From IMG/VR virus record IMGVR_UViG_3300021387_000147: a stretch of DNA of 64,000 bases; one strand, 5' to 3'. The stretch is from a virus. Lineage: Duplodnaviria > Caudoviricetes. The notes under the pieces were generated by a model. It saw nothing but the letters and a program-made list of their open reading frames with translations. It was not told where the DNA came from and ran no database searches. This document shows, one piece after another, positions 13,762 through 58,076 of this stretch; within the stretch, counting starts at the first letter, position 1; each line of letters begins with the position of its first letter. A program made the translations under genes and the position numbers.

Positions 13762-14763
13762 TTATGCTATTTCAAAGAATCCTAATGGAGATTCCAATCT
13801 TATCTGTTCTCTACAATCATCCCATTCTTCTTTATAAGATGAATACAAAGAATCAGCATTCAAAGAACCACCGCCTGCAATTGATAAAGTATACTTACGC
13901 AATGCATTAGTCCATATCATACCTGCTCTTGCAACTACCATACGTCTAAAGATTACATCATTAAATAACTTACTTGACTTCTGTCTCTTGTATACTTCCA
14001 TCAATCCTCTTACAGGATGGTCAGGTTGAGGCCATACAGATAATTCCTTTTCTTTCTCATTATATCTTACGGTATATGATTCACCGAAATCCATCTTAGC
14101 CTGTTCCAACCATACAAGTGCAGCATTCCAATGACCTAGAACATCACCAAATCCACCAGCATTACTATAACAAGAACCTGTAAAGGAACTACCCATACTC
14201 ATTACTGTGTTATACAAAGCATTGTGTGGTAGAGTAAACAAATCATTGATTGTTCCCATCCAATCTGAAACTTGGAAATCTACAATAGACTCTAATTCAT
14301 CACAGATTTTATAGTGTGATTTTCCTGGTACTAAGTCCATAACAAGATAATCTCTATAATTACCTTCTCTGAAATAATACTTCCACATGTATTTAACTGT
14401 ATCAGCAATAATGAAATTCAATTGCTGATCTGAAATTTCAATACAAATTACTGGAGCACCTAACATCATCTTAATGTAGTTTCTCATTTGAGCTACATTC
14501 TGAATGTTCATCGCATCCATAAACTCATCCCTAACAGGAGGTTTAAATGGAGGATGTGGAGGTGCAGGTGGATGAGGTGGAATTATATCAGGTTTTGGTC
14601 CTGTTCCTGGCCATGGTCCATCTGCTGGAGGGAATGGTCCTCTTATTTCATTTCCTGGAAGCATACCATCCATTGGAGGATGCATTGGAAACATTCCACC
14701 TGGAGGTGGAGGAGGTTTTGGAAATGGTCCTTTCTTAGTAATTTCTTGTGTTATATTAGCCAT
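13762..14763 (-). CDS. neck protein (T4 gp13-like) with Pro-rich N-terminal extension
   Basis: YIKMMLGAPVICIEISDQQL, W...L.KY....AGG.SLN...LY. Confidence 0.85.
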   Translation of the reverse strand: MANITQEITKKGPFPKPPPPPGGMFPMHPPMDGMLPGNEIRGPFPPADGPWPGTGPKPDIIPPHPPAPPHPPFKPPVRDEFMDAMNIQNVAQMRNYIKMMLGAPVICIEISDQQLNFIIADTVKYMWKYYFREGNYRDYLVMDLVPGKSHYKICDELESIVDFQVSDWMGTINDLFTLPHNALYNTVMSMGSSFTGSCYSNAGGFGDVLGHWNAALVWLEQAKMDFGESYTVRYNEKEKELSVWPQPDHPVRGLMEVYKRQKSSKLFNDVIFRRMVVARAGMIWTNALRKYTLSIAGGGSLNADSLYSSYKEEWDDCREQIRLESPLGFFEIA

Positions 14764-14767
14764 ATAC

Positions 14768-14775
14768 TATTTATA
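14768..14775 (-). promoter_or_regulatory. T4-type late promoter
   Basis: TATAAATA, 4 nt upstream of ATG 14763. Confidence 0.75.
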
Positions 14776-14784
14776 ACACAAAAT

Positions 14785-14809
14785 AAAAAAGATGGTATTA
14801 ACCATCTTT
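14785..14809 (-). terminator. rho-independent terminator ending the early small-gene array
   Basis: AAAGATGGT/ACCATCTTT stem with T-run. Confidence 0.65.
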
Positions 14810-15164
14810 ATTTCTTTTTCTTAGGAGCTCTCTTCCTTTCTGTTGTAATTTTCTTTTGCAACTTCTCATTAGCCTCTTCCATACTCATTGTTTCTAAGGC
14901 TGATTTCTGTATAATTGCTTTAGGCTTATTCTTCTCAATATATTCTTTATCCTCATCATATTCTTGTGGAGTTTCAAATTTTCTCCAATAAGATACTCTG
15001 TAGATATTACCAATCTGTTGAGACATTGCTAAGAAATTCTTTTTACATTTCTCCTTAAATGCTTGTGCTTCCTTTTCTGTAGCAAACTCTCTATAAGTCG
15101 TATCCTCACGAGGGAATGCTAACCACTTTGGAGCATATTTGCTCACATATTCTTTATTTGCCAT
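14808..15164 (-). CDS. basic hypothetical protein
   Basis: 118-aa Lys-rich ORF, translationally coupled (TAATG). Confidence 0.65.
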   Translation of the reverse strand: MANKEYVSKYAPKWLAFPREDTTYREFATEKEAQAFKEKCKKNFLAMSQQIGNIYRVSYWRKFETPQEYDEDKEYIEKNKPKAIIQKSALETMSMEEANEKLQKKITTERKRAPKKKK

Positions 15165-15538
15165 TAGAACTTCTCCTTACAAATGTTTTGAATTTGTCTT
15201 CTTTTAATTTCAGCTTTCAATTTACGAATATAATCAACTATTGATTGTAAACGATTTACAAGCTTCTTAGGTTTTTTGTAATAATTATATCTATCGTCCA
15301 TCAAAATAAAATACTTCATAACTCCTTCAGCATTTCTTTTTTGAGCCATTTTAGGATGATATACCTTACATTCACCATTCGTTTGACATGAAGCAATTAA
15401 CTTATGACGTGCATTATCATTGTCAACATAAATTCCAATAGTCTCATCCCATGGAGCTATAGAAAAAGTAGTAAAACCAAACTTTTCTGCTATTTGTTTA
15501 AATTCCACTTGAGTCATGTATATGCTCCTGTAAAGCAA
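15164..15538 (-). CDS. array protein with shared C-terminal tag (soluble type)
   Basis: N-term FKQIAEKFGF; C-term KRRQIQNICKEKF; real start probably the second Met. Confidence 0.7.
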   Translation of the reverse strand: MLYRSIYMTQVEFKQIAEKFGFTTFSIAPWDETIGIYVDNDNARHKLIASCQTNGECKVYHPKMAQKRNAEGVMKYFILMDDRYNYYKKPKKLVNRLQSIVDYIRKLKAEIKRRQIQNICKEKF

Positions 15539-15986
15539 TATTCTTTATTTGTGCTTTCTTATAATATCTTGTTCTCTTCTTATATAAATCTTCCAAATGG
15601 TCGACCATACTTTTAAAGTTATGATATTGTCTTAATTTCAAATTCTTATAGAAAACATCATATCTCCACAGTTTATGTTTCTTATACCAATGATAAAATT
15701 CTTTATATGTTTTACAATATTTTTTATAAATAAGTATTTTAAAATCATCATCCTCTCTTATGTAGATATATGGAACACTATCAAAAGTTAGAGCAGTCTC
15801 AAAAAAATTAGAACTGATCATATCATCAACATGTGCTAAAGGACATAATTCTTCTAGCTTTAATTTAATTAGATATAAATCATGTTCATTAAAACTTGTT
15901 TCTTCTTTAATTCTATAATCACATTCAAGTCTTATAGCCCAAATAAAAACAAATACAGCAATAGGTAAAACAGCTATTATAAACAT
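15498..15986 (-). CDS. array protein with N-terminal TM helix and shared C-terminal tag
   Basis: Hydrophobic N-terminus; C-term KKAQIKNIALQE. Confidence 0.7.
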   Translation of the reverse strand: MFIIAVLPIAVFVFIWAIRLECDYRIKEETSFNEHDLYLIKLKLEELCPLAHVDDMISSNFFETALTFDSVPYIYIREDDDFKILIYKKYCKTYKEFYHWYKKHKLWRYDVFYKNLKLRQYHNFKSMVDHLEDLYKKRTRYYKKAQIKNIALQEHIHDSSGI

Positions 15987-16327
15987 TATTCATCTTGTCC
16001 TATTGATTTAATTAATCTTAATTTATATTGTTTCTTCCAAAATAATGTGTCTTTTTCAACTCTTTTCAAATGATTTTTAAGTGCTTCTTTTGAAGCCAAT
16101 GTTCTTCCATTACCTCTTGTACAAATGGCGCCCATACAATCTAAACGAATATCATAGCATCCACCTCTTTTAGTTTCAGCATCAAGCCATGCAATCAAAT
16201 TATCTGCAGCTCTTTCATTATTCAAATAGATAGCTACATAATTTGAATATTCACCATCTGTATCATAACCAAATTCTTTAGCTACTTCTATGAATTCTTC
16301 TTTAGTCAATTGTTTCGCCATCTGCAA
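15986..16327 (-). CDS. array protein with shared C-terminal tag (soluble type)
   Basis: FIEVAKEFGY; KLRLIKSIGQDE. Confidence 0.7.
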   Translation of the reverse strand: MQMAKQLTKEEFIEVAKEFGYDTDGEYSNYVAIYLNNERAADNLIAWLDAETKRGGCYDIRLDCMGAICTRGNGRTLASKEALKNHLKRVEKDTLFWKKQYKLRLIKSIGQDE

Positions 16328-16637
16328 TACTCTTAATTTGATTTAATTTTATAATACGTTTATAAATGTGTATTCTTTCTGTGACTTCATCAAGCCAATC
16401 AATAAATTCTTTTTGTGTCTTAACTACTTTTGAATTTTGTTCTGTCTCTATAAGATTGATAGCTCTATAAAATATTGGGTTATGTAATTCTACACCATAA
16501 GAACAACATATCGCTAAACACATTTCATTTGTATAAATGTTATCAATGTGTATACGATAATCTCCCATTGATTCTAATAAAGGATTTAATTCAAATCCAT
16601 ATTGTTTAGCTATATTTTTAAAATCTGAGGCTTTCAT
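16302..16637 (-). CDS. array protein with shared C-terminal tag (soluble type)
   Basis: FKNIAKQYGF; KLNQIKSIADGE. Confidence 0.7.
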   Translation of the reverse strand: MKASDFKNIAKQYGFELNPLLESMGDYRIHIDNIYTNEMCLAICCSYGVELHNPIFYRAINLIETEQNSKVVKTQKEFIDWLDEVTERIHIYKRIIKLNQIKSIADGETID

Positions 16638-17110
16638 ACATCTTCCTTACATATATTCTTAATAGCTTCAAGTTTCTTTAACTTATTAAGTTTAGTTTCA
16701 AATGTAGGAACTTGTTTAATAAATTCTTCTAATGTTCGAATACGTGCAAATTCTTTTTGCTTCCATAGTGGATATTCATCAACCTTAACAATAAAGAAAT
16801 ACTTATCTTTAGATTTATGATATTTTAACCATTCTTTATATGTTTTAAAATTGTTCTTGTATAACATACAAAAGAAACGAGTATCATTTAGTCCATAACC
16901 ATGATTTAATCTAGAAATTGTAAAATAATCTTTGCCTTTACAACTTACTTCTAAACCACATCTACGAATAGACCTATCAATCATTGCAACAATCTTTGTA
17001 CCTTCTTCATCACTAACAGTAATTGGCATTGACATTAAACGTAAGCGTCCTAAAAGATAACTTACATAAAAAATTGCCATAATACCAAATATAATTGCTA
17101 AAGGTTCCAT
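16634..17110 (-). CDS. array protein with N-terminal TM helix and shared C-terminal tag
   Basis: Hydrophobic N-terminus; KLEAIKNICKEDV. Confidence 0.7.
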   Translation of the reverse strand: MEPLAIIFGIMAIFYVSYLLGRLRLMSMPITVSDEEGTKIVAMIDRSIRRCGLEVSCKGKDYFTISRLNHGYGLNDTRFFCMLYKNNFKTYKEWLKYHKSKDKYFFIVKVDEYPLWKQKEFARIRTLEEFIKQVPTFETKLNKLKKLEAIKNICKEDV

Positions 17111-17595
17111 TAGTCTTCCTCTTTACAAATACTTTGAATTTTCATTAATTTTTCTTTTCTAACTGCAAGCTTCATTTGATTTGGTATATCATTAAACATT
17201 TGATAAAAATCATCATACTTAGCAACAGGATTCAAATATTGAAATGCTCTTGCTTCAAATACATACGATAAACTAAATCTCAAATCTGGCATTTTTCTTT
17301 TCTTTAAGAAATCAAAAAAACTTGTATAAGTCAATCTATCAAAAGTATAATATAATTTATCTTCAATATAAAACGCATCTTTATATATTGCAAAGTTCAT
17401 TTCATATCCATATTTAGTTTCTACTTTCTTTTTAATTGTATCAAAAAGAAATTTCCTTGTTTGTTGGTCAAAATATGGTAGCTCATCCTTAATAAGATTA
17501 TAATGAATTACTTGGTATATCATCCAAAGAACGCATAACGTTAATGCGGTCATCAAAATAAAAGCTACACCTATACCAATAATCGGAACTAACAT
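17110..17595 (-). CDS. array protein with N-terminal TM helix and shared C-terminal tag
   Basis: Hydrophobic N-terminus; KLMKIQSICKEED. Confidence 0.7.
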   Translation of the reverse strand: MLVPIIGIGVAFILMTALTLCVLWMIYQVIHYNLIKDELPYFDQQTRKFLFDTIKKKVETKYGYEMNFAIYKDAFYIEDKLYYTFDRLTYTSFFDFLKKRKMPDLRFSLSYVFEARAFQYLNPVAKYDDFYQMFNDIPNQMKLAVRKEKLMKIQSICKEED

Positions 17596-18062
17596 ATATC
17601 CTTTTCTTTACAAATACTTTCAATCAATAATTTCTTATAAATTTTCTTTCTATCTCTAATAAGTCTTGGAAATTCTTTTTCAAGCTTAAGAATATCAGTG
17701 TACACTTCAAATAATGTTTCATCAGGATATGGACCAGATATGTATTCATTATACGGCATATAAAAAACTGAATAGTAAATATTGGATTTATGCTTAAGAA
17801 AATGATCTTTAAAAGAGTAAGGGTTTTTCTTAAGATAAATAGCCATCTCACCAATTTCTACTTCCTTATAAGACCATCTACTATAGAATGGACCATATTT
17901 AACCATATTATACTTTTGATACAGTCCATGCATGTGCAAATAAAACCAATGCCATTCCTTTTCTGTAATATGATTTTTATCATCTTTATAATACTTCCAA
18001 ACCATACACAGTACACCGCATATAGCAAGAAAATATAATGGTGCAAGCATAACATTAATCAT
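17589..18062 (-). CDS. array protein with N-terminal TM helix and shared C-terminal tag
   Basis: Hydrophobic N-terminus; KKLLIESICKEKD. Confidence 0.7.
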   Translation of the reverse strand: MINVMLAPLYFLAICGVLCMVWKYYKDDKNHITEKEWHWFYLHMHGLYQKYNMVKYGPFYSRWSYKEVEIGEMAIYLKKNPYSFKDHFLKHKSNIYYSVFYMPYNEYISGPYPDETLFEVYTDILKLEKEFPRLIRDRKKIYKKLLIESICKEKDIC

Positions 18063-18408
18063 CTTTACAAATACTCTCTATTTGAAATTTCTTAATATCT
18101 TTCTTAATAAATTTTACCAATCTTAAATACAATTCTAAATTCTTTTCAAATTCAGATTCATCTTCAGAATCAAAATACGTTGAAGAGCAACCAGTATCAA
18201 TTGCTCCATTTGTATAAATTTCAATAGCATTCTTTAATTTAATCTGATTACAATTAGTGTTTAATTGCGTAATAACTCTATGATGATCTTCAGGTAAAGA
18301 AAAACAAATAAAATGTTTTCCACCAATAATCTGTTTACCAACTTCCTCTTCAGTCAGTTGTTCCAAACCATGTTTCTTACAGATCTCAATAAATTTTTCT
18401 TCACTCAT
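18055..18408 (-). CDS. array protein with shared C-terminal tag (soluble type)
   Basis: FIEICKKHGL; KKFQIESICKDD. Confidence 0.7.
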   Translation of the reverse strand: MSEEKFIEICKKHGLEQLTEEEVGKQIIGGKHFICFSLPEDHHRVITQLNTNCNQIKLKNAIEIYTNGAIDTGCSSTYFDSEDESEFEKNLELYLRLVKFIKKDIKKFQIESICKDD

Positions 18409-18833
18409 ACTGGATCCTTACAAATGTTTCTAATACGACGGAGCTTTTCAGTTATATTAAAAAGCTTAACTTCCTTTGTAATGCTTAACAATTCATCTTT
18501 CAAAATTGCAGGGTCAGTAACAGTAATTCCATTTATTGCAGTTGACAAATAACATTGACCATCGTAATTAACAATTTTTATTTTGTTATAGAGAACACAT
18601 TCGAATAAAGCATTTCTTAAATGCTTTTTATTATAATCAATAGTGAAGACAATTACAATATTTGCTTCAGATGCAGTAGTATATGTCGGTGTATTTAAAG
18701 AAACTACATACTTTTTGCTTAAACTTTTAGTAGTGTCACATTTATCAAAAAGATCTGGCTCATAACCACATTCATGACAAATGTTCAAAAACTTTTCTTC
18801 ATTTAATGTATCTTCTTTAACGTGAGAAAACAT
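18405..18833 (-). CDS. array protein with shared C-terminal tag (soluble type)
   Basis: FLNICHECGY; KLRRIRNICKDPV. Confidence 0.7.
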   Translation of the reverse strand: MFSHVKEDTLNEEKFLNICHECGYEPDLFDKCDTTKSLSKKYVVSLNTPTYTTASEANIVIVFTIDYNKKHLRNALFECVLYNKIKIVNYDGQCYLSTAINGITVTDPAILKDELLSITKEVKLFNITEKLRRIRNICKDPV

Positions 18834-18834
18834 A

Positions 18835-19554
18835 TTATTCCTTACAAATGTGTTTAATTTCGTAGAGCTTTCTTAAGCGAGCAAACTTCTGTTGTAATTC
18901 ATTATTCTTTTGAATTTGCTTTTCAATTTCTTCGTATGCCTTCTTAAATCCATCTACATTCAAACAGTTATCAGTAAACTTAACTGGATATTCTGCGATA
19001 TATTCCTTTGTTGTAGGAAATGCTATTTGATATGCATATTTTTCATTACCTTCATAGAAATAAAGAATACGCAATTTCTGCAAAGTCAGTGTCAATGTAT
19101 GCACAACTTTGTTTGTATACTTTCTTGTCACTGCATCTTTAACAGTTTCAATCGCAGACGTATACTTGATAAATGGATGCTGTGCTTGATGAGCCCAAGG
19201 TTCATTACAATAATGATAAATGAAAGATGTGCCATCACAATTATGATTGAAAAAACTATTGCGCCATAAATCTTCAAGCGTATACTTTTCAAGATAATCA
19301 TCATCTTTAAGTGCATCCATCATGTTAATAGTATATTTCTTTTGAATACCCATAAATGCACCATTTGACCAATTAGCACAGATCTTATTTTCACTTGGAT
19401 GTGCAGTAGAACGTGCCAACTCAGTTCGCACATAAATCTTCAAACATTCAATCATCGCTTGTTTCAATGCATCAGTCATATTCTTTCTATCCTCAATATC
19501 TTGCACAACCTTATTAAACTGTTCAGATACTGACTTCATAAGCAATTCTGTCAT
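18835..19554 (-). CDS. array protein with shared C-terminal tag
   Basis: 239 aa; KLYEIKHICKE. Confidence 0.7.
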   Translation of the reverse strand: MTELLMKSVSEQFNKVVQDIEDRKNMTDALKQAMIECLKIYVRTELARSTAHPSENKICANWSNGAFMGIQKKYTINMMDALKDDDYLEKYTLEDLWRNSFFNHNCDGTSFIYHYCNEPWAHQAQHPFIKYTSAIETVKDAVTRKYTNKVVHTLTLTLQKLRILYFYEGNEKYAYQIAFPTTKEYIAEYPVKFTDNCLNVDGFKKAYEEIEKQIQKNNELQQKFARLRKLYEIKHICKE

Positions 19555-20108
19555 TAATCTTCATCCTTTCCAATAGAATGGATGGCGGCATATTTTGCAT
19601 TTCGAACAGAAGCCTTAATCATTGCTTCATTCTTTTCCTGCGTATCTCGAATTAAATCAACTGCCAACTTCCAATCTTCAAAATCTACTTTCTTAGAAAA
19701 ATCAAAATCATATCTTTCACGATAACCACCACATGCAAGCTGAACAGGAAGTTTCTTTTCATCTACATACTGATAAATGAAATTGGGAACCATCATTGTC
19801 AAAGAAATTTGCCATGGATGCCAATTCTGTCCACTTGCTCTCCAAACACTGCAAGTAATATCCTTATAAGTATACAAATTCCAATAAGTATTATCAGCAA
19901 TTTCTAAATAATAGGCTTTGCGGATTTTTTCGAACTTTTTAATAGGGTCGAAAATCACGTGATAGTCATGATGAAAATCACCATTCAAAATCAGCTTTTC
20001 TTCAGACGCTTCATAACGGTCGATAATATACAACTGTTTGGAATGCTCCTTAGACAAATACTGGAGCATATCCACGATTTTCATTTGAGCATCCCATTCG
20101 TTATACAT
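19554..20108 (-). CDS. array protein with shared C-terminal tag
   Basis: 184 aa; KYAAIHSIGKDED. Confidence 0.7.
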   Translation of the reverse strand: MYNEWDAQMKIVDMLQYLSKEHSKQLYIIDRYEASEEKLILNGDFHHDYHVIFDPIKKFEKIRKAYYLEIADNTYWNLYTYKDITCSVWRASGQNWHPWQISLTMMVPNFIYQYVDEKKLPVQLACGGYRERYDFDFSKKVDFEDWKLAVDLIRDTQEKNEAMIKASVRNAKYAAIHSIGKDED

Positions 20109-20278
20109 TATTCAACTTCTCTTCCGTCAATTTCAGTGTCAGCCAAGAAAGAACCAAACTTCTTGATAATCTTCTGACGATTTTCCTCGGCCTTAGCCTT
20201 GTCATGATACACGCCCCAAATCATACGGCGTTCGGGCTTGTCCATAGTGTTATAAGTCAAAACATATACCTTTTCCAT
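20108..20278 (-). CDS. small hypothetical protein (56 aa, below ORF-track cutoff)
   Basis: GAGGT SD; MEKVYVLTY...IWGVYHDKAKAEE, a common small phage-protein pattern; coupled to next gene by TAATG. Confidence 0.65.
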   Translation of the reverse strand: MEKVYVLTYNTMDKPERRMIWGVYHDKAKAEENRQKIIKKFGSFLADTEIDGREVE

Positions 20279-20478: not shown

Positions 20479-20480
20479 CT

Positions 20481-20593
20481 TAACCTCTTTTATTTTAACA
20501 AGTAAAATATACTAAAAAAGAGGTTTCTTGGAAACCCCTTTTAATGTAAAATAAAGTTTACAGAACTATAAAATATGTAAATTATAGTTTACT
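20481..20593 (-). promoter_or_regulatory. early promoter cassette copy 1 with palindromic boxes
   Basis: GGGTTTCCA-N17-TATATT; boxes TGTAAA-N6-TTTAC at 20545-20562 and 20576-20593. Confidence 0.75.
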
Positions 20594-22371: not shown

Positions 22372-22502
22372 TTAACCTCTTTTATTTTAACAAGTAAAAT
22401 ATAAGTATATTTGGATTCTTTGGAAACCCTGTTTTTCGTAAAATAATGTTTACAAAAGGCCTTGGAATGTAAACATTTTGTTTACGTAAACTAAAATTTA
22501 CA
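22372..22502 (-). promoter_or_regulatory. early promoter cassette copy 2 with palindromic boxes
   Basis: GGGTTTCCA-N17-TATATT; leader identical to copy 1; boxes at 22437-22454, 22468-22486 and 22485-22502. Confidence 0.75.
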
Positions 22503-27283: not shown

Positions 27284-27988
27284 TTACTTAATTGTTTCAA
27301 CAAATCCGTGTCCTGTATATACAGTTCCATTACCTTTAATACCAATTGCAACTATTGGGTAGTCAGTTGTCCAAGCAAATGGAATGAATGTATATGAATT
27401 TGATGGTAAATTATAATTGTTAATGTTATCTGATACTTTATCCCAACTACCATTATATGTGGATATATCAGTCTGACCAGCACTCAATGGCATAATACTT
27501 GCACCACCATTTTCTGGCATAACTGAAACAAAGCCTCTTACATTATATGCAGATTCTGACAAGAAAAGTACTTTTTGTTTAGATGCATTCGAACCAATAT
27601 TAACTGCATAACTCTTATACAAATTATAATGAACATCTTCATGTTGTGTTTCTTGTTCTTTCCATTCATAATAAGGTGCGATTTGGCCGCCTGGTTCTAC
27701 CACTGTCAATACTTTGCCGCCATCTCCTTCTGCAGGCTCTTTGACCATGCTTACTTTACTATTCTCATTATTGAATGTAACACCAGCCATAGCACCAGTT
27801 GTACTATCTTCGTAAATAGTCATCAAGTTCTTGTGAACAGTTTTTGAACCTTCAAATACTTTAATTTCTGACTTATTAGTAGGAATGTCTGTTGCAGCGG
27901 CTGCACCAATATTCTGACGAGCTTGTGCTTTTGCATCTTCACCTAAACCTTGATCTGTTGTCCATAATACACTTGTTGTTTGTGCCAT
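27284..27988 (-). CDS. putative fibre/structural protein
   Basis: QGL....KAQARQNIGA and DGGKVLTV motifs typical of phage fibre proteins. Confidence 0.55.
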   Translation of the reverse strand: MAQTTSVLWTTDQGLGEDAKAQARQNIGAAAATDIPTNKSEIKVFEGSKTVHKNLMTIYEDSTTGAMAGVTFNNENSKVSMVKEPAEGDGGKVLTVVEPGGQIAPYYEWKEQETQHEDVHYNLYKSYAVNIGSNASKQKVLFLSESAYNVRGFVSVMPENGGASIMPLSAGQTDISTYNGSWDKVSDNINNYNLPSNSYTFIPFAWTTDYPIVAIGIKGNGTVYTGHGFVETIK

Positions 27989-41613: not shown

Positions 41614-43126
41614 TATAGTTTATTTAGAAAAAGTAAATGAAACAGTAGTTAAAGTAGATTGTAATGACGAAGTAGCACATAATTTATATTGTCGTTATTC
41701 TGCTTATTCTCCTGGTTATATTTTCAATCCTAGATATAAGATGCACGTCTGGGATGGTATGATACACATGTATACTCCAAGAAGTAGTACCATTCCTATG
41801 GGTCTTTTACCTGACGTTATTCGTTATTTTGATAAAGAAGGTATTGAATATAAATTATCTAATTTCACCAATATGATTGATGAAAATATAGATGATTGGT
41901 TTGAACAACAAATGAAAGCAAATATGGTTAATGCACCATATCCTTTACGTGATTATCAGAAAGAAGCTATTTACGCAGCATTAAAGAATAAGAAAGGTAT
42001 TCTACTTTCTTGTACTTCTTCTGGTAAATCCTTAATGATTTTCAATATCATTGTGACTTTATTGACACAAAAGAAATTAAAGAAGACTATGATTGTTGTT
42101 CCTAACAAAACCCTAGTTGAACAGTTGTATAAAGATTTTATTGACTATGGATGGAAGAACATTGATATTTGTGTCACAAAATTATATGATGAAGAAAAGA
42201 AGAATGTAGATTTTAGAAAGCCAGTATTGATTACAACTTGGCAATCAATCTATAAGAAAGAAAAATCTTTCTTTGAAGATTATCAAGCAGTAATATGTGA
42301 TGAAGCTCACCAGAGTAAAGCACAAGCATTATCTACAATCTTAAAATCATGTACAAATGCAAGTTATAAGATTGGTACTACTGGTACTTTATCTACAGAA
42401 GCATCAGATAATTTGACTATTCAGAGTATTTTAGGAGATATTCTATTTGAACTTAGAAGTAAGGATTTGATTGAAAAAGGTTATTTAACAAAGATTACTA
42501 TTGCAAATATCTTAGTCAAATATCCTATGGAGTTTATTAAGACTCATAAGAATTTGCAATATCCTGAAGAAGTTAGATATGTAGAAGAATATCCTGAACG
42601 TAATAAAGCGCTAGATTTAATCCTGGACCATACTCCAGAGACTCATAATATCTTATTGCTAGTAAACCATCGTGATCATGAAAAAAGCCTCCAGGAATAC
42701 CTGAAAGCGAAATATCCTAATAAGAAAGTAAGTATTATTGATGGCTCTGTAAAAGCAAAAGAAAGAGAAAGTATTAGAACTGGAATTGAAAATGAAGATG
42801 GAACTATTTTGTTAGCAACTTTTGGAACTATGTCTACTGGTGTTAACATTCCTAAACTTCATGCAGTTGTATTATATTCTAATTCTAAGAGTAAGATTAA
42901 GGTTTTACAGAGTATTGGACGTGGATTGAGAAAGCATAATACAAAGTCTCATGTTATCTTATATGATATTATTGATGATTTGTCTTATTTTACACCAAGA
43001 GGTAAACATAAGAAGAATTACTTATATCAGCATTGGGAAGAAAGAACAAAGTATTATGTTGAACAAGAATTCCCACAAATTACAACTAATTTAAAGTTGG
43101 AGTATCATCCTGAGGATCAGGAATAA
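41606..43126 (+). CDS. uvsW: UvsW-like SF2 DNA helicase
   Basis: WDG.I, LRDYQ, TSSGKS (Walker A), DEAH, GTTGT, STGVNI, LQSIGRGLR. Confidence 0.93.
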   Translation: MSDIVYLEKVNETVVKVDCNDEVAHNLYCRYSAYSPGYIFNPRYKMHVWDGMIHMYTPRSSTIPMGLLPDVIRYFDKEGIEYKLSNFTNMIDENIDDWFEQQMKANMVNAPYPLRDYQKEAIYAALKNKKGILLSCTSSGKSLMIFNIIVTLLTQKKLKKTMIVVPNKTLVEQLYKDFIDYGWKNIDICVTKLYDEEKKNVDFRKPVLITTWQSIYKKEKSFFEDYQAVICDEAHQSKAQALSTILKSCTNASYKIGTTGTLSTEASDNLTIQSILGDILFELRSKDLIEKGYLTKITIANILVKYPMEFIKTHKNLQYPEEVRYVEEYPERNKALDLILDHTPETHNILLLVNHRDHEKSLQEYLKAKYPNKKVSIIDGSVKAKERESIRTGIENEDGTILLATFGTMSTGVNIPKLHAVVLYSNSKSKIKVLQSIGRGLRKHNTKSHVILYDIIDDLSYFTPRGKHKKNYLYQHWEERTKYYVEQEFPQITTNLKLEYHPEDQE

Positions 43127-43448
43127 ACTCTTGATCTGCTATATGTTTGATAGCTTCTAATTTGTGATATTTTTTATTTCTATGATATATTTTAGTTATA
43201 TCATAGATTTTTTTTGTAAATTTTTCTTTGTCCCAATTGAATGTATCAATATTGGGTTTATTTGATAATAAATCTACGTAGATAAAGCGGACTACTATAT
43301 TATCTTTATTTTCACAGATGAAACCAAATGTATCATCTTTTTCATATCCAAAATAAAAATAATTGTCACCAAATGGATATACATTTATACCCAATGTTTT
43401 TATATAATCAATTACTTCTTGACTTGCATTAGAGAAAAAGACGTCCAT
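43086..43448 (-). CDS. isolated member of the C-terminal-tag family
   Basis: KYHKLEAIKHIADQE near the C-terminus; TATAAATA-N4-ATG start. Confidence 0.65.
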   Translation of the reverse strand: MDVFFSNASQEVIDYIKTLGINVYPFGDNYFYFGYEKDDTFGFICENKDNIVVRFIYVDLLSNKPNIDTFNWDKEKFTKKIYDITKIYHRNKKYHKLEAIKHIADQEFIPDPQDDTPTLN

Positions 43449-43985: not shown

Positions 43986-45290
43986 TTACCATACTAGATC
44001 TGTAGACATGCCGTCTGAGAATAGACCATTGAACTTCAATAGACGATAGTAGTTTTCAGCTCCCAACATATTTGTTGCGAATCCATAACGAGACATAATA
44101 CCAACACGTGGTGAGAAGTCGTTTGGATCAACTGCCTGGTTGATAACACCAGTTACGTATGGGCAGAATACTACACCAGCATCAGACAATGAAGAACCCT
44201 TATATGCTAATAGAACTTCACCGTTATCAGTTGTACCATCTTCAGATACAGCGTACTGATCACAGTATACCTTGATTGAATTGTTTAGAGTACCGATTTC
44301 TGGAGTGACTAGAGAACCGTTAACGTCGTGCTGAATCTTGTTGAAGAATGGAGCAGCTGACTGTAGAACTGTAGCCATATCTGGAGAAACTACTGCGATG
44401 TTTGCAGCGCCTCTACGAGTAGCGGTACGAATATCGTTTGCAGCCTTTTGGATCTGTGTAACGATGTTTGAATATCTTTCCTGAGACCAACGTCCGATGA
44501 TACCATCGTAATTAGACTTATAATCTTCACCAGAAGCCTTATTGTAAATCTTTGGTGTACATAGAGACTTACAACGACCGATTGTTTCACGGTCCATTTC
44601 TGCGGTCATTTCTGCCTGAAGAACGTTAATCATTTCAGACATCATTTCAATACCCTGCATTGCCTTAATATCAGCTGCAGATTCTAGAGAGAATGATGCT
44701 GCTAGTTTACGTGTCTTAGCAACGATAGACTGTCTTGACAACATTAGGCCTAGTTCTGGCATCTTACGATCACCAGTCTTTGTGATTCCCCAACCTTCAC
44801 CGGTCTGAGTATCAACACCAGTACCTGCATCGTATGCTCCATCAGTGTTCTGTGTAGAACCTGTGAAACCAGAGAAACGAGGAACTGCCTTCCATGCTGC
44901 TTCAACTAATTCTGTTGGATCGTTTGTCTTATAAATGTAACGTAGTGCGAATGCCAAACCAACTGGACCATTCAATGGCTGAACACCAACCAATACGTTA
45001 GCGAATAATTGTGGGAATACTCTACGTACTAGTGCCATAGAAATAGGTGCAAAAACACCCTTTGCGTCACCACCGTGTGGAATACCCTGGTCTAGACCAA
45101 GAGGTGCACCAACACCCTGTGTGAAATCTTCTGTTAGAAGATTTTCAGAAAGGTTGCCCTTATTCTGGTTTTCTAGTAGACGAGCAGTGTTCATACGAAC
45201 ATTATAATCTTTAATTGAAGAAACAGACAAAGAACCTGGTGCCTTTGACCATTTATCCAATAATGATGCTTGTGCTTGACTAATTTTCAT
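43986..45290 (-). CDS. major capsid protein (T4 gp23-like); start re-called to 45290
   Basis: ARLLENQ, LVRRVFP.L.A...VGVQP..GP.GL.FALRY, AKTRKL, CPYV, DP..F.P.VG.MSRY; AGGAG SD before MKISQ. Confidence 0.95.
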   Translation of the reverse strand: MKISQAQASLLDKWSKAPGSLSVSSIKDYNVRMNTARLLENQNKGNLSENLLTEDFTQGVGAPLGLDQGIPHGGDAKGVFAPISMALVRRVFPQLFANVLVGVQPLNGPVGLAFALRYIYKTNDPTELVEAAWKAVPRFSGFTGSTQNTDGAYDAGTGVDTQTGEGWGITKTGDRKMPELGLMLSRQSIVAKTRKLAASFSLESAADIKAMQGIEMMSEMINVLQAEMTAEMDRETIGRCKSLCTPKIYNKASGEDYKSNYDGIIGRWSQERYSNIVTQIQKAANDIRTATRRGAANIAVVSPDMATVLQSAAPFFNKIQHDVNGSLVTPEIGTLNNSIKVYCDQYAVSEDGTTDNGEVLLAYKGSSLSDAGVVFCPYVTGVINQAVDPNDFSPRVGIMSRYGFATNMLGAENYYRLLKFNGLFSDGMSTDLVW

Positions 45291-45334
45291 TTGTTTATCT
45301 CCTATAAATAAATTATTTTTTAATTTACTTATTA

Positions 45335-45342
45335 TATTTATA
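45335..45342 (-). promoter_or_regulatory. T4-type late promoter for MCP
   Basis: TATAAATA about 45 nt upstream of the MCP start. Confidence 0.7.
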
Positions 45343-45368
45343 TAATTAACCAATTATTTTTTGCAAAA

Positions 45369-57963: not shown

Positions 57964-58076
57964 TAACCTCTTTAATTTTTACATGTATAATATAAGTATT
58001 TTGGAATGATTTGTAAACCCTGGTTATGTAAAAAGAAGTTTACAAAGCGCTCCTGGAATGTAAAATATAGTTTACA
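57964..58076 (-). promoter_or_regulatory. early promoter cassette copy 3 with palindromic boxes
   Basis: GGGTTTACA-N17-TATATT; boxes TGTAAA-N6-TTTACA at 58027-58044 and 58059-58076. Confidence 0.75.

What the first reader, a model, noticed from the sequence alone, without database searches (positions are those of the whole stretch)
15164..20108. Tandem array of 11 diverged small proteins sharing a C-terminal tag
Seen: eleven consecutive, translationally coupled ORFs with little overall similarity all end in K-x3-I-x-[SNH]-I-[CGA]-x-[ED]: KRRQIQNICKE, KKAQIKNIALQE, KLRLIKSIGQDE, KLNQIKSIADGE, KLEAIKNICKED, KLMKIQSICKEE, KKLLIESICKEK, KKFQIESICKDD, KLRRIRNICKD, KLYEIKHICKE, KYAAIHSIGKDE. Each tag follows a basic amphipathic helix. 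The block lies between an early promoter cassette (20481-20593) and a terminator (14785-14809). Inference: a modular system of variable N-terminal effector/sensor domains with a common docking, assembly or localisation helix, for example a host-takeover or anti-defence panel that plugs into one partner. Caveat: TGT AAG GAR (C-K-E) also encodes the SD of the next gene, which can explain CKE but not the K...I..I core.
Basis: partly seen in the sequence, partly recalled or inferred. Interest (0 to 1): 0.85.

Follow-up and report, generated by a model that had tools for sequence, protein, structure and literature searches.

The report
Phage gene array sharing a C-terminal helix motif
An uncultured T4-like gut phage carries 12 fast-evolving small proteins of unknown function that all keep the same short motif (K-x3-I-x2-I plus a small residue) at the end of a long C-terminal helix; the motif is under protein-level selection, and its DNA is also where genes of the array are naturally deleted.

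Summary
Eleven overlapping or abutting genes on the minus strand (20108-15164) all end in K-x3-I-x2-I-[C/G/A]. The motif is in 11 of 11 array genes and 1 of 71 other genes, and that one (43086-43448) is a twelfth family member with no coupled downstream gene. None of 40 other translationally coupled genes has it (Fisher about 1e-11 to 1e-12).

Conservation is at the protein level. Ser uses AGT, TCA and TCT, the K and I codons follow window usage, and among orthologs the tag has pS 0.30 and pN 0.08.

The "unrelated N-terminal modules" reading holds only in part. The proteins fall into a soluble family (5+1), a family with an N-terminal membrane helix (4) and two larger proteins. AlphaFold gives both families helix, beta-sheet and a 31-residue C-terminal helix that ends in the tag.

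The family has no Pfam, PHROG or PDB relative and is confined to one T4-like lineage from ruminant and other gut metagenomes. Array bodies evolve fast (pN/pS 0.36-0.62, flanks 0.07-0.23), and copy number ranges from 6 to 11.

Three natural deletion junctions lie inside the tag. Function is not shown. My best inference is a shared protein-contact surface on diversifying early accessory proteins.

The parts
19554..20108 (-). g11, 184 aa, first tagged gene; tag KYAAIHSIGKD at 19595-19563
   Evidence: Two allelic types in relatives (85-91% and about 47% identity), and both keep the tag.
18835..19554 (-). g10, 239 aa ORF (relatives start at the Met 25 codons in, giving 214 aa); tag KLYEIKHICKE at 18870-18838
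   Evidence: One contig lacks 19475-19549.
18405..18833 (-). g9, 142 aa, family A (soluble); tag KLRRIRNICKD at 18446-18414
18055..18408 (-). g8, 117 aa, family A; tag KKFQIESICKD at 18093-18061
17589..18062 (-). g7, 157 aa, family B (N-terminal membrane helix); tag KKLLIESICKE at 17636-17604
17110..17595 (-). g6, 161 aa, family B; tag KLMKIQSICKE at 17151-17119
16634..17110 (-). g5, 158 aa, family B (the modelled member); tag KLEAIKNICKE at 16675-16643
16302..16637 (-). g4, 111 aa, family A; tag KLNQIKSIADG at 16349-16317
15986..16321 (-). g3, 111 aa, family A (the modelled member); tag KLRLIKSIGQD at 16024-15992
15498..15986 (-). g2, 162 aa, family B; tag KKAQIKNIALQ at 15560-15528
15164..15517 (-). 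g1, 117 aa, family A; tag KRRQIQNICKE at 15205-15173
43086..43448 (-). m12, 120 aa, twelfth family member outside the array; tag KLEAIKHIADQ at 43163-43131, 14 residues before the stop, with no coupled downstream gene
14808..15164 (-). p118, last gene of the operon; untagged, conserved (90-95%) and present in every related array
20108..20278 (-). p56, small conserved untagged gene just upstream of g11
14788..14809 (-). intrinsic-terminator-like hairpin closing the operon
20480..20562 (-). repeated stem-loop plus promoter-like cassette upstream of the operon (PeSL-like)

Best explanation
The block is a lineage-specific multigene family, not a set of unrelated modules. It sits in a hyperplastic region of an uncultured T4-like gut phage, just upstream of late gene 13. 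The family has 12 copies in the window, 11 of them in one translationally coupled operon.

Members share one architecture: a short helix, a beta-sheet and a helix of about 31 residues. Some carry an added N-terminal membrane anchor and some an extra N-terminal domain. The bodies diversify fast and copies are gained and lost between close relatives.

The tag is the last three turns of the C-terminal helix. K1, I5, I8, the small residue 9 and the acidic residue 12 fall on one helical face. I infer that this face is a protein-protein contact used by every member for the same interaction, either one shared phage or host partner or assembly of the members with each other. On this reading the variable bodies supply specificity, as expected for early host-interaction genes.

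The tag DNA, together with the overlapping ribosome-binding site and start of the next gene, is the only sequence shared between neighbours. It therefore also serves as the in-frame crossover point at which cassettes are deleted.

Shown: the motif, protein-level selection, the family structure, fast evolution, copy-number variation and recombination inside the tag. Inferred: early expression, cytoplasmic location of all tags, and the contact function.
For: Enrichment:
- The motif is in 11/11 array genes, 1/71 other genes and 0/40 other coupled genes.

Protein-level selection:
- Ser at position 7 uses AGT, TCA and TCT.
- The K and I codons mirror window usage.
- In orthologs the tag has pS 0.295, similar to the body (0.261), but pN 0.080 against 0.126.
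- No K-to-R or I-to-V/L change appears in any intact tail of about 150 homologs.
- m12 keeps the K, I, I and small-residue core without a downstream gene and without an SD-like C-K-E.

Beyond fold maintenance:
- Families A and B align only over the last 31 residues (probability 92%).
- Their bodies do not align (P 0.04).
- P0043, a distant homolog of the A domain in another T4-like phage, lacks the motif.

Architecture:
- AlphaFold models have pLDDT 88 (A) and 75 (B).
- Both end in a 31-residue helix.

Arms-race pattern:
- Body pN/pS is 0.36-0.62, against 0.07 for gp13 and about 0.2 for p56 and p118.
- Related arrays hold 6 to 11 copies.

Recombination in the tag:
- L009 joins g10 to the g7 tail, with the crossover inside ATTTGTAA[A/G]GAA. 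That contig is seen in 8 samples.
- Proteins exist with g8 plus the g7 tail and with g4 plus the g2 tail.
Against: No partner has been identified. No fold or family match gives a function. The hydrophobic stripe of the helix runs continuously into the tag, and the tag is modelled with fair confidence as part of the domain. It could therefore simply pack against the protein's own N-terminal helix. Early timing rests only on position and promoter-like repeats.
Confidence: 0.45

Rival explanations
1. The tag is purely structural. It is the part of the C-terminal helix that packs against the conserved N-terminal helix (the F..IA..FG[FY] motif) and closes the fold. On this reading the family is an ordinary diverged paralog expansion with no shared partner.
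For: In family A the other invariant residues are F10 and G18 in or just after the N-terminal helix and L85 in the C-terminal helix. The hydrophobic periodicity continues through the tag. pLDDT is 81 over residues 101-110. Another T4-like phage (L016) has paralogs that conserve both an N-terminal helix motif and a C-terminal motif.
Against: The rest of the core has diverged beyond alignment between families A, B and g10/g11, while the tag stays nearly identical. K, I and I show no conservative substitutions. The distant homolog P0043 keeps the domain without the motif.
Confidence: 0.3
2. The conservation is at the nucleic-acid level. The tag would be a ribosome-binding or translational-coupling signal, an RNA structure, or a recombination linker kept for cassette shuffling, and the peptide would be incidental.
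For: The C-K-E codons (TGT AAG GAR) do supply the SD of the next gene. Members whose next start lies further downstream (g2, g4) or is absent (m12) lack C-K-E. Crossovers do occur in the tag.
Against: The Ser codon family switches, Ile uses ATT, ATA and ATC, and Lys uses AAA and AAG at window frequencies. Synonymous divergence in the tag equals that of the bodies. m12 keeps the core with no downstream gene. Junction RNAs have no shared fold, with z-scores from -2.4 to +1.6. The exactly shared DNA is only about 11-12 nt.
Confidence: 0.07
3. The tag is a membrane-targeting amphipathic helix of the MinD/FtsA type that brings all members to the inner membrane.
For: The helix is C-terminal, basic and amphipathic. 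Four members are membrane-anchored anyway.
Against: Positions 11-12 are acidic in nearly all copies. Specific invariant K, I and I residues and a small residue are not needed for lipid binding. Family B already has a transmembrane helix. m12 carries 14 more residues after the tag.
Confidence: 0.05
4. The tag acts as a nascent peptide inside the ribosome exit tunnel and tunes termination and re-initiation at the overlapping stop and start codons.
For: In the array the tag ends 0-8 codons before the stop, which places it in the tunnel at termination. All eleven genes are coupled.
Against: m12 has the tag but no coupled gene, and its tag lies 14 codons before the stop. The 40 other coupled genes in the window lack any such peptide. 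The tag is modelled as part of a folded helix.
Confidence: 0.03

Closest known systems
PeSL regulatory cassettes of T4-type hyperplastic regions (Arbiol et al. 2010, PMC2839356; Comeau et al. 2014, PMC4122927)
   Same: A short sequence repeated at the boundaries of small non-essential genes in a T4-type hyperplastic region. Recombination between copies deletes gene cassettes between close relatives. A PeSL-like stem-loop and promoter repeat also flanks this operon.
   Different: PeSLs are intergenic promoter-terminator units. The tag is coding, is conserved as a peptide, and has no promoter or stem-loop. Crossovers in it are in frame and produce hybrid C-termini.
Viral multigene families with a variable body and a conserved C-terminal docking motif, such as poxvirus ankyrin/PRANC (F-box-like) proteins (from my own knowledge, not tested here)
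   Same: Many fast-evolving paralogs in one virus, each ending in the same short helical motif.
   Different: There is no sequence or fold relation. No hub partner is known here. The bodies here share one small alpha/beta architecture, not repeats. The analogy is functional only.
Small alpha-beta-alpha proteins such as the TriTu immunity protein (7zhm_D), frataxin/CyaY, YjbR/MotA C-terminal domain and type III secretion chaperones
   Same: The same order of elements: N-terminal helix, 4-5 strand sheet, C-terminal helix. The best Z is 5.8 over 79 residues at rmsd 3.1.
   Different: The scores are in the range the tool calls a common arrangement (Z under 8). There is no sequence signal. No shared function can be drawn from this.
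Uncharacterised viral protein clusters of the ESM Atlas (106-111 aa)
   Same: TM-score 0.75-0.77 over 101-104 residues to the family A model.
   Different: They are unnamed and carry no Pfam family. They may be this same lineage or relatives such as P0043.

Membership tests
PeSL (promoter-early stem-loop) shuffling cassette | Lies between genes (non-coding) | tested here: not met
   The tag lies inside the reading frame of every member.
PeSL (promoter-early stem-loop) shuffling cassette | Sigma-70-like promoter plus a terminator stem-loop | tested here: not met
   No consistent promoter or hairpin at the tags.
PeSL (promoter-early stem-loop) shuffling cassette | Recombination between copies creates insertions and deletions between close relatives | tested here: met
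   The g10|g7 junction lies inside the tag in L009. Proteins with g8|g7 and g4|g2 hybrid tails exist.
Any curated protein family (Pfam-A, PHROGs) | Profile match above threshold | tested here: not met
   No PHROG hit. Only sub-threshold Pfam hits.
MinD/FtsA-type membrane-targeting helix | Terminal amphipathic helix, basic, with no acidic cluster, on otherwise soluble proteins | tested here: not met
   Acidic residues at positions 11-12. The tag is also present on four proteins with a transmembrane helix, and it is internal in m12.
T4 capsid-targeting sequence of internal proteins | N-terminal peptide of about 10 residues, removed at an (L/I)-x-E site by the prohead protease | tested here: not met
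   The tag is C-terminal, and its I-C-K-E spacing does not fit I-x-E. The definition of the family comes from my own knowledge.
TriTu-like or other immunity-protein fold | Significant structural match over the domain | tested here: inconclusive
   Z 5.8, 79 residues, rmsd 3.1, tied with an unrelated Mediator subunit.
Hub-docking multigene family (works like poxvirus PRANC proteins) | Conserved terminal motif on many diverged paralogs | tested here: met
Hub-docking multigene family (works like poxvirus PRANC proteins) | The motif binds one common partner | not testable with these tools
   No candidate partner.

The most novel reading that the evidence does not exclude
The twelve proteins are a phage-encoded panel of adaptors. 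Each uses its fast-evolving alpha/beta body to bind a different host or defence target. All plug through the invariant K/I/I helix face into a single hub, for example a host protease, RNA polymerase or a phage complex. This would be a bacterial-virus counterpart of the poxvirus ankyrin/F-box families. The tag would double as an in-frame recombination joint that lets adaptors be swapped between co-infecting phages.
Probability: 0.2. Interest if true: 0.8.

Novelty: new variant of a known kind. Interest (0 to 1): 0.55.

Why it matters
Arrays of small ORFan early genes in the plastic regions of T4-type phages are where host-takeover and counter-defence functions usually sit. They are normally impossible to group or to attack experimentally. 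Here one invariant 9-residue helix face links twelve otherwise unalignable proteins. That gives a single handle for finding what the whole set touches: a tag peptide, a tag mutant, or one bait.

The array also shows a coding counterpart to the intergenic PeSL cassettes. A conserved peptide-coding joint allows in-frame gene loss, and presumably exchange, in a hyperplastic region.

The phage lineage is common in gut samples: its array was found in ruminant (sheep and bovine) gut metagenomes and sheep-gut metatranscriptome libraries. It has no cultured relative, and its major capsid protein is about 33% identical to any GenBank phage.

Tried and rejected
- **Near-identical DNA in GenBank phages:** none found.
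- **Syntenic region next to gp13 in more distant IMG/VR relatives (69% gp13 identity):** no array and no tag in the 20-kb loci. The 411-kb record behind L001 has only a 12-bit chance hit to the tag profile.
- **Nearest held record G001:** a 25-kb fragment with one weak hit, probably the m12 ortholog.
- **Family and sequence searches:** PHROGs, Pfam and PDB sequence searches gave nothing usable for families A and B, g10 and g11.
- **Fold searches:** PDB by Foldseek, PDB by VIA-align wide, BFVD and ESM Atlas gave no match that assigns a function.
- **Language-model look-alikes:** all scores were 0.80 or below, so they are leads only.
- **Homodimer of g3 by complex prediction:** no verdict (score 0.00, controls not run). 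This is neither for nor against binding.
- **Tag profile search of 5.8 billion proteins:** the 120 listed hits of 403 were all members of this lineage. The weaker tail was not shown, so tags in other lineages are neither found nor excluded.
- **RNA structure at the eleven junctions:** no shared fold.
- **Pattern hit at 27401:** in a frame with many stops, so treated as chance.
- **Metatranscriptome contigs covering the array:** these show presence in RNA libraries but do not prove transcription. A 4173-nt 'skip' joint in one DNA run has a 24-nt side and low depth, and I did not use it.
- **Whole genome:** not held, so a genome-wide census of tags outside the 64-kb window was not possible.
Full report
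**1. What the window is**

The window is from an uncultured T4-like myovirus with about 30% G+C. The gene just downstream of the array (13762-14763, minus strand) matches Pfam Phage_T4_gp13 in its orthologs and PHROG 211. The major head protein (43986-45353) matches PHROG 138. It is only about 32-33% identical to gp23 of any GenBank phage. No near-identical DNA exists in GenBank phages and no whole genome is held. Close relatives occur on metagenomic contigs of 150-180 kb. The array DNA is found in sheep and other animal gut metagenomes and in sheep-gut metatranscriptome libraries.

**2. The observation**

Every neighbouring pair overlaps (TAATG, ATGA, or 7-20 nt) or is 1 nt apart. For g3 and g1 the ATG starts at 16321 and 15517 give N-termini that match their paralogs and orthologs. 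Most relatives of g10 start 25 codons further in.

| Test | Result |
|---|---|
| Strict pattern, in-frame hits in the array | 9, against 0.03 per shuffled window |
| Core K...I..I in the last 20-25 residues, array genes | 11 of 11 |
| Same, all other genes in a crude set of 82 | 1 of 71 (Fisher 8.6e-13) |
| Same, other translationally coupled genes | 0 of 40 (Fisher 2.1e-11) |

The motif is therefore not a by-product of stop and start overlap. The one outside hit, 43086-43448(-), is a real twelfth member (m12). It has the family A type of N-terminal helix and the tag KLEAIKHIADQE, followed by 14 more residues. It converges on a plus-strand gene, so no coupled gene follows it.

**3. Protein or DNA?**

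- Among the 12 copies the Ser/Asn/His position uses AGT, TCA, TCT, AAC, AAT, CAC and CAT.
- Lys uses AAA 7 and AAG 5. The two Ile positions use ATT, ATA and ATC. All are in roughly the proportions used by the large genes of the window.
- Across orthologs from eleven related loci (seven distinct arrays), synonymous divergence in the nine core codons is 0.295, as high as in the bodies (0.261). Non-synonymous divergence is lower, 0.080 against 0.126. That holds even with two frameshifted tails from L012 left in.
- In about 150 homologs every intact tail keeps K1, I5 and I8. Not one K-to-R or I-to-V/L change appears, while positions 2-4, 6, 7 and 9-12 vary.
- The 47%-identity allele of g11 still ends in KLAQIISIN.
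- RNA folding of the eleven junctions shows no shared structure.

C-K-E (TGT AAG GAR) provides the next gene's Shine-Dalgarno. It is replaced in g2, g4 and m12, where the next start is further away or absent. The K...I..I-small core is a peptide-level constraint.

**4. What the proteins are**

- **Family A** (g1, g3, g4, g8, g9, and probably m12) is soluble, 111-142 aa, with an N-terminal F..IA..FG[FY] motif.
- **Family B** (g2, g5, g6, g7) has an N-terminal hydrophobic helix and a mid-protein Y-x-[ST]-F..[FW]LK.[HR]K motif.
- **g10 and g11** are larger. They align weakly with each other over their last 82 residues (73% probability).

Profile comparison aligns A with B only over the last 31 residues (91.8%). 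With the tail removed the bodies do not align (P 0.04).

AlphaFold with the ortholog and paralog alignments gives the following:

| Family | Model | pLDDT | Predicted elements |
|---|---|---|---|
| A | g3 | 88 | helix 7-16, four strands, helix 78-108 |
| B | g5 | 75 | membrane helix 3-26, helix 34-49, five strands with a short helix, helix 127-157 |

The two families thus share the order of elements and a 31-residue terminal helix whose last three turns are the tag. On a helical wheel K1, I5, I8, residue 9 and residue 12 lie within about 100 degrees of each other. This is my calculation from the sequence. Basic residues follow the membrane helix of family B, so I infer that the tagged end is cytoplasmic, like the soluble members.

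**5. Relatives and known families**

- There are no Pfam or PHROG matches.
- PDB sequence searches found nothing.
- Foldseek found nothing significant in PDB or BFVD.
- The exhaustive structural search peaks at Z 5.8 (a Mediator subunit and the TriTu immunity protein). The tool itself rates that as a common arrangement.
- The ESM Atlas holds unnamed viral clusters of the same shape, with TM-scores of 0.75-0.77.
- A full HMMER scan of 1.84 billion representatives with the family A profile finds only 17 proteins. These are essentially the five paralogs and fragments of them.
- One of the 17 is a distant homolog, P0043. It lies in another T4-like phage from a bovine sample, near UvsW, and its helix ends RLAAIELDFK, so it lacks the motif.
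- g10 and g11 are equally confined to this lineage.
- More distant relatives of the phage (gp13 69% identical) have no array beside gp13, and one 411-kb record has no tag anywhere.

**6. Evolutionary behaviour**

Synonymous divergence is similar in the array and its flanks. The array bodies have pN/pS of 0.36-0.62, against 0.07 for gp13, 0.23 for p118 and 0.19 for p56.

Gene content differs between loci whose flanks are 95-100% identical. All eleven genes are present in L008 and L014/L015. Other loci differ as follows:

| Locus | Difference from the full array |
|---|---|
| L005-L007 | g8 absent, g7 broken |
| L012 | g6 absent, g4 truncated, g9 and g1 with frameshifted tails |
| L013 | g8, g3 and g2 absent |
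| L009-L010 | only g11, g10, g6, g5, g4 and g3 remain |

Only g11, g10 and g5 are intact in every locus.

**7. The tag as a recombination joint**

In L009, g10 ends KLYEIKHICKEKDIC and runs straight into g6. DNA alignment shows g10 sequence up to ATTTGTAA and g7 sequence from there on. The g9-g8-g7 deletion therefore crossed over within the 11-12 nt shared by the two tags. That contig is seen in 8 samples, and two further contigs carry the same form. The shared stretch is far shorter than assembly k-mers, so I judge misassembly unlikely.

Two further hybrids exist as database proteins: g8 with the g7 tail (P0116), and g4 with the g2 tail. L013 lost g3-g2 by a crossover in a 5-nt TGACT match within the overlapping start regions of the paralogs g3 and g1. 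P0038 is a chimera of the g3 N-terminus and the g2 C-terminus.

This works like the PeSL-mediated shuffling described for T4-type hyperplastic regions (PMC2839356; PMC4122927). Here, however, the repeat is coding and the products stay in frame. A true PeSL-like unit also bounds the operon. A stem-loop and promoter-like stretch at 20480-20562 has 32 nt repeated exactly at 22372-22403 and about 87% at 57964-57994. Many metagenomic contigs break exactly there. The operon ends at the hairpin 14788-14809.

**8. Interpretation**

The data reject a nucleic-acid-only explanation, and they reject the idea of unrelated modules. What remains is a choice between two readings. Either the tag is a contact surface common to all members, or it is a fold-closing element.

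I favour the contact surface (0.45 against 0.30) for three reasons:
- The tag is far better conserved than any other core element across the three sub-groups.
- Not even conservative substitutions occur at K, I and I.
- A distant homolog of the domain does without it.

I could not test burial, because no coordinates are returned. The one complex prediction allowed, a g3 homodimer, gave no verdict. Host takeover or counter-defence is suggested only by position in an apparently early operon, fast protein evolution and copy-number flux. No member has a recognisable activity. The blocks FHHDY, NWHPW and GGYRERYDF in g11 are conserved even in the 47% allele and would be the first place to look for one.

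**9. Verdict**

This is a real, statistically overwhelming, protein-level motif on a new, lineage-restricted multigene family in a T4-type hyperplastic region. The function is unknown. The docking-helix idea is plausible but unproven. The in-frame recombination role of the tag is a new and documented twist on a known mechanism.

Noticed in passing
window 43086-43448 (-): A twelfth tagged family member sits far from the array, next to the head-gene region. Its tag is internal (14 residues before the stop) and no coupled gene follows it.
   Followed up: yes
window 20480-20562, 22372-22403, 57964-57994: A dispersed stem-loop plus promoter-like cassette. 32 nt are identical at two sites and about 87% identical at a third. 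Many metagenomic contigs end or switch context exactly at 20481-20562, as expected of a PeSL-like repeat.
   Followed up: partly
window 27369-27401 (-): The pattern KFIYIHSICLD followed by a stop occurs in a frame riddled with upstream stops, overlapping the 234-aa gene 27284-27988 in another frame. It is either chance (0.03 expected per window) or a decayed remnant.
   Followed up: partly
window 19479-19554 (-): The first 25 codons of the 239-aa g10 ORF are absent from most relatives (214-aa forms), and one contig skips 19475-19549. The start and the coupling to g11 therefore differ between strains.
   Followed up: partly
window 19554-20108 (-), alignment A8: g11 has strongly conserved blocks (LNGDFHHDY, NWHPWxISL, GGYRERYDF) that survive in the 47%-identity allele. 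This looks like an active site or binding site, but no family match was found.
   Followed up: partly
L012:5111-6571: One relative carries an extra 338-aa gene and a 55-aa gene on the opposite strand, inserted between p118 and gp13. Neither has a Pfam match. This may be a mobile insertion.
   Followed up: partly
L016:868-2197 (-): Another T4-like phage, from a bovine sample, has three adjacent paralogs that start with an EAKEILKxNGYLxE-type helix. Two of them end in NLPxxxExxFxE. This is a second case of paralogs that conserve both terminal helices.
   Followed up: no
window 14768-14775 (-): TATAAATA, the T4 late-promoter consensus, lies only 4 nt upstream of the gp13 ATG, right after the operon terminator. 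The spacing is unusually short and was not examined further.
   Followed up: no
P0038 (database protein): A 96-aa natural chimera joins the first 61 or so residues of g3 (family A) to the C-terminal helix of g2 (family B), at a GTATGG microhomology.
   Followed up: partly
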